A stretch of 8,489 nucleotides of DNA from a virus (Duplodnaviria > Heunggongvirae > Uroviricota > Caudoviricetes): IMG/VR virus record IMGVR_UViG_2706794493_000018, one strand, 5' to 3'. This document shows, one piece after another, positions 3,001-6,000 of the stretch (position 1 is the first letter of the stretch; every line of letters starts with the position of its first letter). Position numbers: made by a program.

Positions 3001-6000
3001 CAACGGCAGATAGATAAAAGCCCCACCCGACTATAAATCGAAGTGAGGCCCCTATATGCTCGTCACATATAGATTGCCTCTTACGGACCGAAAGGTCAAG
3101 GAGAAGCAGGCTATGAAGCAAAGGGAGAAATCCCTCGCCACCTCTGATGTGTCAGGCATCCTCAACGCACCCGCACTTAACCCGCTTCGGCGGGTTTTTG
3201 TTTTTATTTTCAACGCGTTTGAAGTTCCGGACGGCGCCGGAATAGAATCAAAAATACTTAAGTAGCGCGCAGGGAGAAGAGGGATGGACCCCGAACAGGG
3301 GAGTGCTATTTATCTGGAAGGATTCTGTTGATGAGAATCGAAGAATTACGTGAAATTTTTAGTGAAGATGGCCTCTATACTGTGCGCGTTGAGAAGGGCG
3401 CTATTGTCAGCCACTGCCGTATTAAATGTTTACAGTCTCAACAAAGGAAGAGTGGAGCTGCGTTAATTCATTTTGTGGATGGGCTTGTGACGGATGGTTT
3501 TATTTTGCGTGCAAATGAATTTGTCACATCGTTGCCGTCTCTGAAAGAAGCTGGGATTAAGGCTGGTTTTTCTGCTTTTGAAGATTAGTGAATTCATCTA
3601 CAATTCAGCGCAGGGCTGAACCCCTGTTGAGTAACACTGTGCCACCGGAGAAAGCCGATGGCGCAAAATTCCAGACTACACAATTCTGATAATTCAGCCG
3701 TCTTTGCCAGCAGGCACGGGCGGCGTTCTCATGCATTCAAATCTGACTGGTTCCGGCACGCCCCATGCACTGAAGAACAGGCCGAATGGCTGATTCAGAA
3801 CTACCGCAGACGTGGGTATGAGTTTAGGAAAGCCCTCAGCCTCGATTATCGTCACTGGATAATCTACGTCAGGCTGCCGTACTCCGAGCGCCCACCGCGT
3901 CCGTCCCGCACATTCCAGCAACGCATCTGGAGGTAACGTGCGGGTATTACTTCGACCTGTTCCGGTACCGGAACTTGGGGTGGTGGTCCTTAAACCAGGC
4001 CGTGAATCCATGCAGGTATTCCATAACCCTCGAGTGCTTGTGGAGCCGGAGCCGAAAAGCATGCGCGGTCTGCCGTCCGGCATCGTCCCTGCCGTTCGCC
4101 AGCCGCTGGCGGAGGATAAATCATTACTGCCGTTTTTCAGCAATGAGCGTGTGATTCGTGCTGTTGGTGGCGCTGGTGCACTGTCTGACTGGCTGTTGCG
4201 TCATGTCAAATCCTGCCAGTGGCCTCATGGTGACTATCATCACAGTGAAACCGTTATTCACCGTTATGGTACCGGCGCAATGGTGTTGTGCTGGCACTGC
4301 GACAACCAGCTGCGTGACCAGACATCCGAATCACTCGAGCAACTTGCTCATCAAAACCTGTCAGCATGGATGATTGACGTCATCGGTCACGCAATAAGCG
4401 GTACGCAGGAGCGTGAATTATCTCTGGCTGAATTATCCTGGTGGGCGGTCCGCAATCAGGTGGCGGACGCGCTACCGGAAGCGGTATTACGTCGTTCGCT
4501 GGGGTTGCGTGCGGAAAAAATCCGCTCAATGTACCGTGAAAGCGACATCGTACCGGGAGAGCAGACCGCCACCATCATACTGAAGCAGCGCACAAAAAAT
4601 CTTGCGCCGCTGCCTCACGCCCACCAGCAAAACCCACCACAGGAAAAGACGGTGGTCAGCATTGCCGTTGATCCGGAGTCTCCGGAATCCTTCATGAAAC
4701 GACCTAAACGTCGCCGCTGGGTAAATGAGAAATACACACGCTGGGTAAAGACACAGCCGTGTGCGTGTTGTGGTAAGCCAGCGGACGATCCTCATCATCT
4801 GATTGGTCATGGTCAGGGCGGAATGGGAACAAAATCCCACGATATTTTCACGCTACCGCTGTGTCGGGAGCATCACAACGAGCTTCATGCGGATCCGCTG
4901 GCGTTCGAAGAAAAGCATGGTTCCCAGGTTGATTTAATTTTTCGTTTTCTTGATCACGCCTTTGCAACCGGCGTGCTCGGGTAAAAGAGGTTACTGATGC
5001 GTATAGAGTTTGTTTTGCCTTACCCGCCGACGGTGAACACCTACTGGCGACGTCGTGGCAGCACATATTTTGTATCAAAAGCCGGTGAGCGTTATCGCCG
5101 GGCTGTGGCGCTTATTGTTCGCCAGCAGCGGCTGAAATTAAGCCTGTCCGGACGGCTGGCAATAAAAATTATTGCAGAACCACCGGATAAGCGCCGCCGT
5201 GACCTGGACAACATTCTGAAAGCACCGCTGGATGCGCTGACGCATGCGGAAGTGCTCATTGATGACGAGCAGTTTGATGAAATCAATATTGTGCGCGGTC
5301 AGCCTGTGCCAGGTGGACGGCTGGGCGTGAAGATTTACGAAATCAGAGGTGGTAACGATGGCGCGTGATATCCAGATGGTTCTTGAGCGATGGGGGGCAT
5401 GGGCAGCAAATAATCATGAAGATGTAACATGGCCCTCGATAGCTGCTGGTTTTAAAGGATTAATCCCGACTAAAGTGAAATCACGTCCTAAGTGTTCTGA
5501 TGATGACGCCATGATAATTTGTGGTTGTATGGCACGATTAAACAAGAATAATCAGTATTTGCACGATTTGTTGGTGGATTATTACGTAGGTGGAATGACA
5601 TTTATGGCTCTTGCACGTAAGCATAGATGTTCTGATGGGCTTATTGGTAAAAGGCTTTATAAAGCGGAAGGTATTATTGAAGGAATGCTTATGGCTCTGA
5701 ATGTCCGGTTAGATATGGATATGCGGTAGGGATATATAGTGATGAGGGTTATGTTTTCTGTGTTTATAATTAACATGTTTATTTTTTGATGGTCATGTAT
5801 TGTGGAAGGTAGATAAAATGTTGCCTGGTGAATTGAAAATATTGATAATCAATCTTCATCATTAAATAAAAGGAGTGCTTATGTGGATTGTGTTAGTACT
5901 GTCACTGTCAACTCTCAGTTGGCATAAGGTAGTGGCTTTTTCATTGTTGACGGTGTCTGTTGTCCTGGCTGTGCTTAATGATATTATTGATTGGTCGGTG

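What the first reader, a model, noticed from the sequence alone, without database searches (positions are those of the whole stretch)
3331..4984. Translationally coupled three-gene block: two small unknown proteins plus a DUF968 HNH-like protein
The second small gene's stop and the GTG start of the 348-aa DUF968 protein are within 2 nt of each other and share a ribosome-binding site. The large protein ends in a Cys/His-rich HNH-like motif suggestive of a nuclease or nucleic-acid-binding function. Small basic proteins coupled to a putative nuclease could form a regulated nuclease module, for example anti-host or anti-phage. None of the three has an assigned function.
Basis: partly seen in the sequence, partly recalled or inferred. 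Interest (0 to 1): 0.45.

Follow-up and report, generated by a model that had tools for sequence, protein, structure and literature searches.

The report
Prophage antirepressor, small protein, HNH nuclease
This is an ordinary, very common stretch of a lambda-like E. coli prophage: a known antirepressor (Rem), a real but uncharacterised small protein that phages habitually place just before their DNA-junction nucleases, and the YdfU zinc-finger HNH nuclease.

Summary
The three ORFs exist as described (3328/3331-3588, 3658-3936, 3938-4984). They form the middle of the P-to-Q (ninR) operon of a Qin/Rac/Gifsy-type lambdoid prophage. The same block occurs in 4569 of 5426 complete E. coli genomes, including K-12 Qin.

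- **Gene 1** is rem, 72% identical to K-12 Rem, the published antirepressor of the DicA repressor. It is not basic, and it is not coupled to gene 2.
- **Gene 2** (92 aa, pI 11) is a genuine gene (dN/dS 0.13-0.26) of the small phrog_1212 family. Its function is unknown.
- Across Enterobacterales phages, members of this family sit directly upstream of whichever nuclease the phage carries, and are usually translationally coupled to it. That nuclease is RusA, NinG/Rap, YbcO, YdfU or a DEDD exonuclease.
- **Gene 3** is YdfU (DUF968), with an intact and invariant zinc site and His-Me-finger active site.

The nuclease prediction is supported. A dedicated three-gene regulated toxin or defence module is not: there are no PADLOC hits, and YdfU occurs widely without either small gene. 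I rate this a new member of a known kind, of modest interest.

The parts
2966..3196 (+). Context: hok/sok type I toxin-antitoxin remnant, with the sok/mok leader and the hok mRNA 3' terminator (3179-3196). The hok coding sequence itself is deleted.
   Evidence: Rfam sok 103.9 bits at 2966-3115. Terminator-like hairpin at 3179-3196. Alignment to the O157 and K-12 hokD loci shows about 158 bp missing after ATGAAGCA.
3219..3248 (+). Promoter-like site (TTGAAG-18-TAGAAT) between the hok terminator and rem. It lies in a leader conserved in the Qin-type loci.
   Evidence: Consensus scan. The leader is conserved among the window, K-12 Qin, mEp460 and Shigella loci. Function not shown.
3328..3588 (+). 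rem: small antirepressor of the DicA-type prophage repressor (start at TTG 3328 or ATG 3331)
   Evidence: Identity to relatives: 100% to RefSeq WP_000984523.1, 72% to K-12 Rem, 60% to Rac-442 Rem annotated 'prophage antirepressor'. K-12 Rem derepresses dicBp 165-fold (PMC10448788). PHROG 340. It sits in the same slot as the Gifsy-type antirepressors and aligns weakly with them.
3594..3662 (+). Conserved rem-ORF92 spacer carrying the ORF92 Shine-Dalgarno sequence (GGAG, 3647-3650). A mosaic junction falls at the start codon.
   Evidence: 94% identical to the Rac-442 locus, where the same SD and ATG open irsA instead. Similarity ends 5 nt after the ATG.
3658..3936 (+). ORF92: real small basic protein of the phrog_1212 family. 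It has a 26-aa disordered N-terminal extension and a 66-aa beta-alpha-beta-beta core. Function unknown; nuclease-adjacent.
3929..3940 (+). Coupling junction: GGAGG (inside the ORF92 codons W-R), TAA, one base, then the GTG start of ydfU
   Evidence: Sequence. The same W-[G/R]-stop junction with an embedded GGAGG/GGGGG occurs across the family. In 63 of 77 distinct junctions the next long ORF starts within -10 to +2 nt.
3938..4984 (+). ydfU: DUF968 His-Me-finger (HNH) protein, 348 aa
   Evidence: Pfam DUF968 256.9 bits; PHROG 96 at E 2.7e-174. 99.7% identical to WP_001302148.1 and 86% to K-12 YdfU.
4103..4507 (+). YdfU middle domain (residues 56-190): confidently folded helices plus a beta-hairpin-helix. 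C93, H97, H101, C118, C121 and D122 are invariant in the 40-sequence alignment A2, making it a putative zinc/DNA-binding module.
   Evidence: AF2 pLDDT 75-92. Invariant columns; in the more divergent set, H97 and C121 vary. No Pfam family. No profile similarity to the C-terminal core, lambda Orf or NinG.
4691..4753 (+). Basic segment FMKRPKRRRWVNEKYTRWVKT (residues 252-272, pI 11.9), which follows a disordered linker (residues 222-250) and leads into the nuclease core
   Evidence: P256-W261 are nearly invariant. Charge; disorder. It parallels the basic, unstructured DNA-binding N-terminus of P1 Ref (PMC4330346). This is an inference.
4754..4981 (+). HNH/His-Me-finger core: C275-x2-C278, D283-D284-x-H286-H287, C309-R-E-H312-H313-x3-H317
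4997..5368 (+). Context: rusA Holliday-junction resolvase, 12 nt after ydfU
   Evidence: Pfam RusA E 1.1e-15; PHROG 34.
5349..5729 (+). Context: Q-type late antiterminator, overlapping rusA by 20 nt. It marks the end of the ninR operon.
   Evidence: Pfam Phage_antitermQ E 8.7e-52.

Best explanation
The block is the central part of the delayed-early ninR (P-to-Q) operon of a Qin/Rac/Gifsy-type lambdoid prophage of E. coli. It is not a self-contained three-gene system.

- **Gene 1, rem.** It encodes a small antirepressor that binds and inactivates the prophage's DicA-type (non-cleavable) repressor. This is shown for the K-12 orthologue and inferred here.
- **Gene 2, ORF92.** A genuine small basic protein of a small Enterobacterales-phage family. 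The family is habitually encoded immediately before, and translationally coupled to, the phage's branched-DNA or recombination nuclease, whatever its fold. Its biochemical role is unknown. The likeliest role is an accessory DNA-binding or pathway factor made together with the nuclease (inferred).
- **Gene 3, YdfU.** A zinc-stabilised His-Me-finger (HNH) endonuclease. H287 would be the general base, and H313/H317 with D283/D284 would hold the catalytic metal. A basic disordered tether and a Cys/His middle domain would hold DNA.

By analogy with P1 Ref and phiNM1 Gp16, whose cores are its closest characterised relatives, YdfU most likely nicks DNA at recombination or replication intermediates (D-loops, forks) early in lytic growth. 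It would work alongside the RusA resolvase encoded 12 nt downstream. RecA involvement is possible but untested.
For: **Region identity**
- P C-terminus, DUF1627, paa, hok/sok, rem, ORF92, ydfU, rusA and Q lie in order on one strand.
- The same order occurs in K-12 Qin, in the inducible phage mEp460_ev081 and in O157 PPompW prophages, which also carry dicA/dicC.
- The block is present in 4569 of 5426 complete E. coli genomes.

**Rem**
- 72% identical to K-12 Rem; published antirepressor activity.
- It occupies the same slot as the Gifsy antirepressors GfoA/GftA: dinI-antirepressor-irsA-ORF66-ninG-Q.

**ORF92**
- Under purifying selection.
- Family members lie directly upstream of:
  - NinG in Gifsy-2, SPN3UB and GF-2;
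  - YbcO in phiES15, mEp237 and ST974;
  - RusA in Chris1 and Kosakonia;
  - DEDD exonucleases in N15 and PhiR46_1;
  - YdfU in E. coli.
- Among 235 IMG/VR loci, the directly downstream gene is RusA in 73, NinG in 67, YbcO in 18 and YdfU in 14. 230 of the 235 have a recognised nuclease within 2.5 kb downstream.
- Coupling is family-wide.

**YdfU**
- DUF968; intact invariant motif.
- Weak Pfam RecA_dep_nuc hit. Core homology to Gp16, a RecA-interacting nickase, and to Ref.
- Published placement in His-Me-finger group 7 with YbcO.
Against: - No biochemical data exist for YdfU or any full-length relative. P1 PdcB (27% identical over 91% of the length) has unknown function and is non-essential.
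- The Ref Pfam model is below threshold: 15.9 bits against a cut-off of 26.9.
- Ref's reported active-site His153 has no conserved counterpart here (H or R at position 340).
- Residues 1-55 and 190-260 are poorly modelled, and overall pLDDT is 69.7.
- The ORF92-nuclease adjacency could be inherited gene order rather than function. The 235 loci are redundant, and some family members are followed by non-nuclease genes: a methyltransferase in Eho59, and small ORFs in Pocitis76, PA-1 and MII_001.
- No DicA-type repressor lies in the window itself, so Rem's target is inferred from near-identical prophages.
Confidence: 0.6

Rival explanations
1. ORF92 and YdfU form a dedicated two-component regulated nuclease. 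ORF92 would be an inhibitor, immunity protein or specificity subunit made stoichiometrically with the nuclease through translational coupling.
For: - The 1-nt coupling is conserved in every Escherichia-type locus.
- The ORF92 family is found next to nucleases in most of 235 viral loci and in 62 phage records.
- Coupling is family-wide.
- ORF92 is strongly basic.
Against: - The neighbouring nuclease changes fold (RusA, NinG, YbcO, DUF968, DEDD). That argues against a fold-specific inhibitor.
- 18 of 31 YdfU loci have no ORF92.
- In Kosakonia and Chris1, a rusA gene lies between the two.
- No gene fusions link the two families.
- No structural match suggests an inhibitor.
Confidence: 0.2
2. YdfU is mainly an anti-host weapon like phiNM1 Gp16. 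On this reading it damages or condenses host DNA to stall host replication and favour lytic growth, rather than serving phage recombination.
For: - The Gp16 HNH core is homologous (39% over 59 aa, same CxxC...H...CREHHNExH motif).
- Gp16 inhibits host growth and raises phage yield.
- P1 Ref sensitises lysogens to ciprofloxacin (abstract of PMC4713147).
Against: - Gp16's N-terminal NinB-like domain is absent here.
- ydfU is kept intact in cryptic prophages such as K-12 Qin without obvious harm.
- It is always placed among recombination genes next to rusA and Q.
Confidence: 0.15
3. The block is an anti-phage defence or toxin-antitoxin cassette carried as prophage cargo.
For: - A hok/sok remnant lies just upstream.
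Against: - No PADLOC hit for any of the genes.
- G+C is normal (0.52-0.57) compared with the low-GC cargo elsewhere in the window.
- The genes sit in the core P-to-Q operon and are syntenic with recombination genes in functional phages.
- Gene 1 is an antirepressor, not an antitoxin.
Confidence: 0.05

Closest known systems
rem-ydfU region of the E. coli K-12 cryptic prophage Qin (b1561, b1560) and of phage mEp460_ev081
   Same: Same gene order: hokD, rem, a 92-codon ORF, ydfU, then Q. Protein identities are Rem 72%, ORF92 77% and YdfU 86%. The stop-1 nt-GTG junction is identical.
   Different: The window keeps rusA between ydfU and Q, has lost the hok coding sequence, and has a different short Q. 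K-12 does not annotate the 92-codon ORF.
Bacteriophage P1 Ref, RecA-dependent HNH endonuclease (PDB 3PLW, Pfam PF16786)
   Different: - The Pfam model scores below its cut-off.
- Ref is 186 aa with no middle domain.
- Ref His153 is not conserved in YdfU.
- RecA dependence is untested here.
Staphylococcus phage phiNM1 Gp16 (Pfam HNHc_6 with a DUF968 hit), a RecA-interacting nickase (PMC12817073)
   Same: Homologous zinc-finger HNH core, with identical spacing of the CxxC, catalytic His and CREHHNExH motifs. Both are early-operon phage genes near rusA or other recombination genes.
   Different: Gp16 has an N-terminal NinB/Orf-like domain. YdfU has none detectable and instead carries about 270 unrelated N-terminal residues.
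YbcO / DUF1364 (PDB 3G27), His-Me-finger group 7 (PMC5714182)
   Different: YbcO is a 96-aa single domain. Sequence similarity is marginal.
Lambda ninR recombination genes Orf (NinB) and Rap (NinG)
   Same: Same genomic slot between P and Q. In Gifsy-2, SPN3UB and GF-2, NinG follows the ORF92-family gene exactly as YdfU does here.
   Different: No detectable sequence-profile similarity of YdfU to Orf or NinG. Lambda has no ORF92-family gene, and there is no similarity to NinD, NinE, NinF or NinH.
Gifsy prophage antirepressor operon dinI-gfoA/gftA-irsA (PMC3121763)
   Same: A small antirepressor lies outside the immunity region, followed by recombination genes, the ORF66 gene, a nuclease and Q.
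   Different: - The window has hok/sok in place of dinI.
- It has no irsA.
- No LexA box lies upstream of rem.
- Rem is only 14-22% identical to the Gifsy-type proteins.

Membership tests
Pfam DUF968 (PF06147) | Score above the curated gathering threshold over the whole model | tested here: met
   256.9 bits against a cut-off of 27.8; model positions 1-171 on residues 160-345.
His-Me finger / HNH endonucleases | Beta-beta-alpha-metal core, with the catalytic His at the end of the first strand | tested here: met
His-Me finger / HNH endonucleases | Metal-ligand residues in the helix, and a structural zinc site (CxxC ... CxxH) | tested here: met
   C275, C278, C309, H313 and H317 are invariant and H312 is nearly invariant across homologues of 43-95% identity. 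They align with the mutated zinc and catalytic residues of Gp16.
His-Me finger / HNH endonucleases | Metal-dependent nuclease activity | not testable with these tools
   Needs purified protein.
RecA-dependent nuclease Ref family (Pfam PF16786) | Sequence membership (gathering threshold) | tested here: not met
RecA-dependent nuclease Ref family (Pfam PF16786) | Cleavage only of RecA-bound DNA | not testable with these tools
   Biochemical property (PMC4330346).
Orf(NinB)-HNH fusion proteins (Gram-positive DUF968/HNHc_6, e.g. phiETA Orf20, phiNM1 Gp16) | N-terminal Orf/NinB-like (RAGNYA) domain | tested here: not met
Rem / Gifsy-type small antirepressors | Close full-length homology to an experimentally tested antirepressor | tested here: met
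   72% identity over 83 aa to K-12 Rem, which derepresses dicBp 165-fold.
Rem / Gifsy-type small antirepressors | Cognate short DicA-type repressor in the same prophage | tested here: inconclusive
   The immunity region lies outside the window. The PPompW prophages, 98.7% identical over this block, carry dicA/dicC.
PHROG 1212 (ORF92 family) | Profile match over the whole family model | tested here: met
   E 1.5e-36; profile positions 1-66 on residues 27-92. 58 representatives at 50% clustering in 1.84 billion proteins, almost all stand-alone proteins of 60-106 aa.
Known anti-phage defence systems (PADLOC-DB) | Match of any component to a defence-system model | tested here: not met
   No hits for Rem, ORF92, YdfU or RusA at E <= 0.01.

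The most novel reading that the evidence does not exclude
The ORF92 (phrog_1212) family may be a general partner of phage DNA-junction nucleases of unrelated folds: RusA, NinG/Rap, YbcO, YdfU and DEDD exonucleases. It would be co-produced with them through conserved translational coupling. It might tether them to a common host hub or DNA structure, perhaps through its conserved basic C-terminal tail (...PRPS-x-T-x-QQ-[RK]-[IV]-W-[GR]). If so, the window shows one instance of an unrecognised accessory subunit of lambdoid recombination modules.
Probability: 0.2. Interest if true: 0.6.

Novelty: new member of a known kind. Interest (0 to 1): 0.3.

Why it matters
The block itself is ordinary and nearly ubiquitous in E. 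coli, so it does not change any picture. Three points still matter.

1. It corrects the reading of the region. Gene 1 is a characterised antirepressor, which ties the block to prophage induction control in EHEC-type prophages.
2. YdfU/DUF968 is carried by thousands of genomes, including K-12, yet has never been assayed. The link to P1 Ref and phiNM1 Gp16 gives a concrete, testable activity: nicking of recombination intermediates, possibly RecA-linked. That activity could bear on prophage induction and on SOS- or antibiotic-driven killing.
3. The 66-aa core family of gene 2 is a clean candidate for a missing accessory factor of lambdoid recombination nucleases. Its K-12 copy is not annotated.

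Tried and rejected
- **YdfU as a NinG/Rap homologue.** No profile similarity.
- **Middle domain as a degenerate duplicate of the HNH core**, hinted at by a weak BLASTP sub-alignment. hhalign of the two halves gives probability 0.1.
- **phmmer of YdfU against PDB sequences.** Only chance C2H2 zinc-finger matches.
- **LexA box upstream of rem or ORF92**, as in Gifsy. The only site near these genes is a 1-mismatch CTGT-N8-ACAG match at 3624-3639, and it is not conserved in K-12.
- **ORF92 N-terminal extension as a remnant of irsA.** DNA similarity to the Rac-442 irsA locus stops 5 nt after the ATG, and there is no protein similarity.
- **ORF92 as one of lambda's small Nin proteins** (NinD, NinE, NinF, NinH), Ren or YlcG. 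No similarity.
- **Domain fusions of ORF92 with a nuclease.** None found. The single 338-aa hit, P0391, is a repetitive spurious sequence.
- **One scan with the full ORF92-family alignment** failed because the alignment was too diverse. Three sub-alignments were used instead.
- **The antisense 149-aa ORF at 3694-4143** was set aside. The substitution pattern fits the + strand frames.
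Full report
**What is in the sequence**

The window carries three + strand ORFs at the stated place: 3328/3331-3588, 3658-3936 and 3938-4984.
- ORF2 ends TGG AGG TAA (stop at 3934-3936).
- ORF3 starts with GTG at 3938.
- The ORF3 Shine-Dalgarno sequence, GGAGG (3929-3933), therefore lies inside the last ORF2 codons.
- The GTG is the true start. It aligns with the invariant M1-R2 of 13 homologues from other genera, some of which use ATG.

ORF1 and ORF2 are not coupled. They are 69 nt apart, and ORF2 has its own GGAG at 3647-3650.

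Only ORF2 is basic (pI 11.0). ORF1 has pI 6.1.

Tight junctions are not special here. ydfU-rusA is 12 nt apart and rusA-Q overlaps by 20 nt.

**Where it comes from**

The surrounding genes, in order:
- the C-terminus of replication protein P;
- DUF1627;
- the Paa adhesin;
- a hok/sok locus;
- the three ORFs;
- RusA;
- a Q antiterminator;
- cargo genes and tRNAs.

This is the ninR (P-to-Q) region of a lambdoid prophage.
- The 1.9-kb block matches 4569 of 5426 complete E. coli genomes, and 300 records at 99% identity or more (O157 and relatives).
- RefSeq annotates the three ORFs as hypothetical, hypothetical and 'DUF968 domain-containing protein'.
- K-12 Qin has the same order: hokD, rem, [gap], ydfU, Q. 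So do the functional phage mEp460_ev081 and the O157 PPompW prophages, which also encode dicA, dicC and a cell-division inhibitor.

**Gene 1 is rem**

It is 72% identical to K-12 Rem and 60% to a Rac-type Rem annotated 'prophage antirepressor'.

Ragunathan et al. (PMC10448788) showed two things for K-12 Rem:
- it relieves DicA repression of dicBp 165-fold;
- it causes DicB/DicF-dependent filamentation.

They found Rem through its distant relation to the Gifsy antirepressors of Lemire et al. (PMC3121763).

The window's Rem aligns weakly (14-22%) with the small proteins in the same slot of Gifsy-2, mEp237, SPN3UB, Chris1 and Kosakonia prophages.

I found no LexA box upstream of rem. Its inducing signal is also unknown in K-12.

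**Gene 2 is real**

- The 92-codon ORF is intact, with the same length and the same 1-nt junction, in K-12 (where it is not annotated), mEp460, Shigella, E. ruysiae and others.
- Pairwise dN/dS is 0.13-0.26, with about half of the differences at third positions.
- It matches PHROG 1212 only over residues 27-92.
- Homologues outside Escherichia are 66 aa long and start at the position of residue 27.
- AlphaFold models residues 27-80 with pLDDT about 86 as strand-helix-strand-strand. Residues 1-23 are disordered.
- The family is small: 58 representatives at 50% clustering among 1.84 billion proteins. Nearly all are stand-alone.

**Gene 2 keeps company with nucleases**

This is the most interesting result. 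The table lists what follows the family member in annotated phages.

| Phage | Gene following the family member |
|---|---|
| Gifsy-2, SPN3UB, GF-2 | NinG/Rap, 1-2 nt away |
| phiES15, mEp237, a Klebsiella phage (ST974) | YbcO (Pfam PF07102); 2-nt gap (mEp237) or 4-nt overlap (the other two) |
| Chris1, Kosakonia, Phytobacter | RusA, then YdfU |
| N15, PhiR46_1 | a DEDD exonuclease |
| E. coli Qin type | YdfU |

I also examined 235 IMG/VR loci retrieved with three sub-family alignments.
- The gene starting within 60 nt downstream is RusA in 73, NinG in 67, YbcO in 18 and YdfU in 14.
- Clustering the downstream ORFs gives RusA 123, NinG 68 and YdfU 15.
- 230 of the 235 have a recognised nuclease within 2.5 kb downstream.
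- IrsA/DUF1367 is the upstream neighbour in 120.

Of 77 distinct junction sequences, 63 have the next long ORF starting within -10 to +2 nt. The family's conserved terminal W-[G/R]-stop codons (TGG GGG / TGG AGG) double as that gene's Shine-Dalgarno sequence.

Caveats:
- The loci are redundant and the region is syntenic, so the numbers are not independent events.
- A few members are followed by other genes: a methyltransferase, or small ORFs before NinF/NinG.

The association with nucleases is real as a pattern. It is unproven as a functional link.

**Gene 3, YdfU**

*Family and motif*
- Pfam DUF968 covers residues 160-345 (256.9 bits). PHROG 96, 'HNH endonuclease', covers the whole length.
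- In alignments down to 43% identity, these residues are invariant: C275, C278, D283, D284, H287, C309, H313 and H317. H286 and H312 are nearly invariant.

*Structure*
- AlphaFold (40-sequence alignment, mean pLDDT 69.7) gives two confident parts: residues 55-190 and 260-348.
- The second part is a beta-beta-alpha unit.
- Foldseek against the PDB was uninformative.

*Sequence relatives of the core*
- The core has a sub-threshold Pfam hit to RecA_dep_nuc.
- It is 40% identical over 42 aa to Ref.
- It is 39% identical over 59 aa to phiNM1 Gp16, which I identified in the phiNM1 genome and which belongs to HNHc_6 with a secondary DUF968 hit.
- Gp16 is a zinc-finger HNH nickase. It binds RecA, inhibits host growth and promotes phage propagation (PMC12817073).
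- Ref cuts only RecA-bound DNA and needs its basic, unstructured N-terminus (PMC4330346).
- YdfU likewise has a nearly invariant basic stretch (KRPKRRRW, pI 11.9 for residues 252-272) after a disordered linker.

*Published classification*
- The literature already places DUF968 with YbcO/DUF1364 in His-Me-finger group 7 and notes RusA, Q and antirepressor neighbours (PMC5714182).
- It also describes Gram-positive DUF968 proteins as Orf-HNH fusions (PMC4118853).
- That last feature does not hold for YdfU. There is no similarity to lambda Orf or NinG.

*The rest of the protein*
- The middle domain has invariant C93, H97, H101, C118, C121 and D122 around a hairpin-helix in the 40-sequence alignment. 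H97 and C121 vary in the more divergent set.
- It is probably a zinc/DNA-binding module. It has no detectable relative and is not a duplicate of the core.

*Full-length relatives*
- They occur in Vibrio phages (30% identity).
- P1 PdcB is one (27% identity over 91% of the length). Its function is unknown and it is non-essential.

**Are the three genes a module?**

No.
- Of 31 YdfU loci from other species, 13 have an ORF92 relative and 7 a Rem relative, all but four of them in Escherichia or Shigella.
- The others have YdfU coupled to Rha+KilAC, KilA-N or ORF6N antirepressor-type genes, or to a LexA-like DNA-binding protein.
- RusA lies either upstream or downstream of ydfU.
- The mosaic boundary between the window and a Rac-type prophage falls exactly at the ORF92 start codon. 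There, the same spacer, SD and ATG open irsA instead.
- An antirepressor of one kind or another directly before ydfU is a recurrent arrangement. That fits a shared slot in the operon better than a protein partnership.
- No gene hits a defence model.

**Verdict**

- The best explanation (confidence about 0.6): rem (antirepressor), plus a nuclease-adjacent small protein of unknown role, plus a Ref/Gp16-like His-Me-finger endonuclease that works with RusA on recombination or replication intermediates.
- The nuclease activity, its substrates, any RecA link and any ORF92 partnership are all inferred. None is shown.
- The block is a new member of a known kind and of modest interest.
- The residual novelty lies in the ORF92 family.

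Noticed in passing
window 2966-3196: The hok/sok locus is a remnant. Rfam finds the sok/mok leader and the 3' terminator is intact. About 158 bp covering the hok coding sequence are deleted relative to O157 strain 2017C-4109 and K-12 hokD: after ATGAAGCA the sequence jumps to the 3' fold-back region.
   Followed up: partly
L004 4307-4585 (-) = NC_000913.3 1644306-1644584, complement: K-12 MG1655 has an intact 92-codon homologue of ORF92 between rem (b1561) and ydfU (b1560), with the same 1-nt coupling. It is under purifying selection across strains, yet the reference annotation lists no gene there.
   Followed up: partly
window 2019-2777: The paa gene (AcfC-family adhesin Paa, SBP_bac_11 fold) sits as lower-GC cargo (0.37-0.43) inside the ninR region, between DUF1627 and hok/sok. 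It is a virulence-associated moron.
   Followed up: no
window 1289-1767: Two adjacent ORFs (1289-1600 and 1606-1767) correspond to a region annotated in a near-identical O157 genome as a frameshifted fimbrial-protein pseudogene with an internal stop.
   Followed up: no
window 5875-8033: Downstream of Q lies low-GC cargo (0.36-0.45): a CPBP/Rce1-like membrane protease (5875-6699) and an AraC-family regulator (7320-8033). This is where related prophages have a different Q, a methyltransferase pseudogene or tRNAs.
   Followed up: no
window 8062-8489: A tRNA cluster (Met-CAT, Arg-TCG, Arg-TCT) is followed by a truncated match to the sRNA family STnc100 at the window edge.
   Followed up: no
window 3594-3662; L003 6230-6298: The rem-ORF92 spacer, including the SD and ATG, is 94% identical to a Rac-type prophage in which the same start opens irsA (DUF1367). 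The mosaic recombination boundary lies at the start codon.
   Followed up: yes
window 3249-3330: The leader between the promoter-like site and the rem start is strongly conserved, even in the otherwise divergent Rac-type locus (GCGCGCAGGGA.AAGAGGGATGG.CCC...GGGGA). It contains a possible hairpin and might be a regulatory 5' UTR.
   Followed up: no
L012-L030 upstream of the ydfU homologues (about 3200-4004 in each locus): In distant prophages, ydfU is translationally coupled (GTGA/ATGA overlaps) to antirepressor-type genes of at least three unrelated families (Rha+KilAC, KilA-N, ORF6N). 'Antirepressor then ydfU' therefore recurs independently of Rem.
   Followed up: partly
AF234173.1 88636-89556 (phage P1 pdcB): P1 PdcB is a full-length YdfU homologue (27% identity over 91% of the query). 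It lies just upstream of the late promoter activator lpa, mirroring ydfU upstream of Q. P1 thus carries both Ref and a YdfU-type protein.
   Followed up: partly
proteins P0041-P0043, P0129, P0133 (584-607 aa): Some database entries fuse DUF968 with an antitermination Q domain (PF03589). This probably explains why RAST-style annotations call YdfU 'antitermination protein Q' in several phage records.
   Followed up: no
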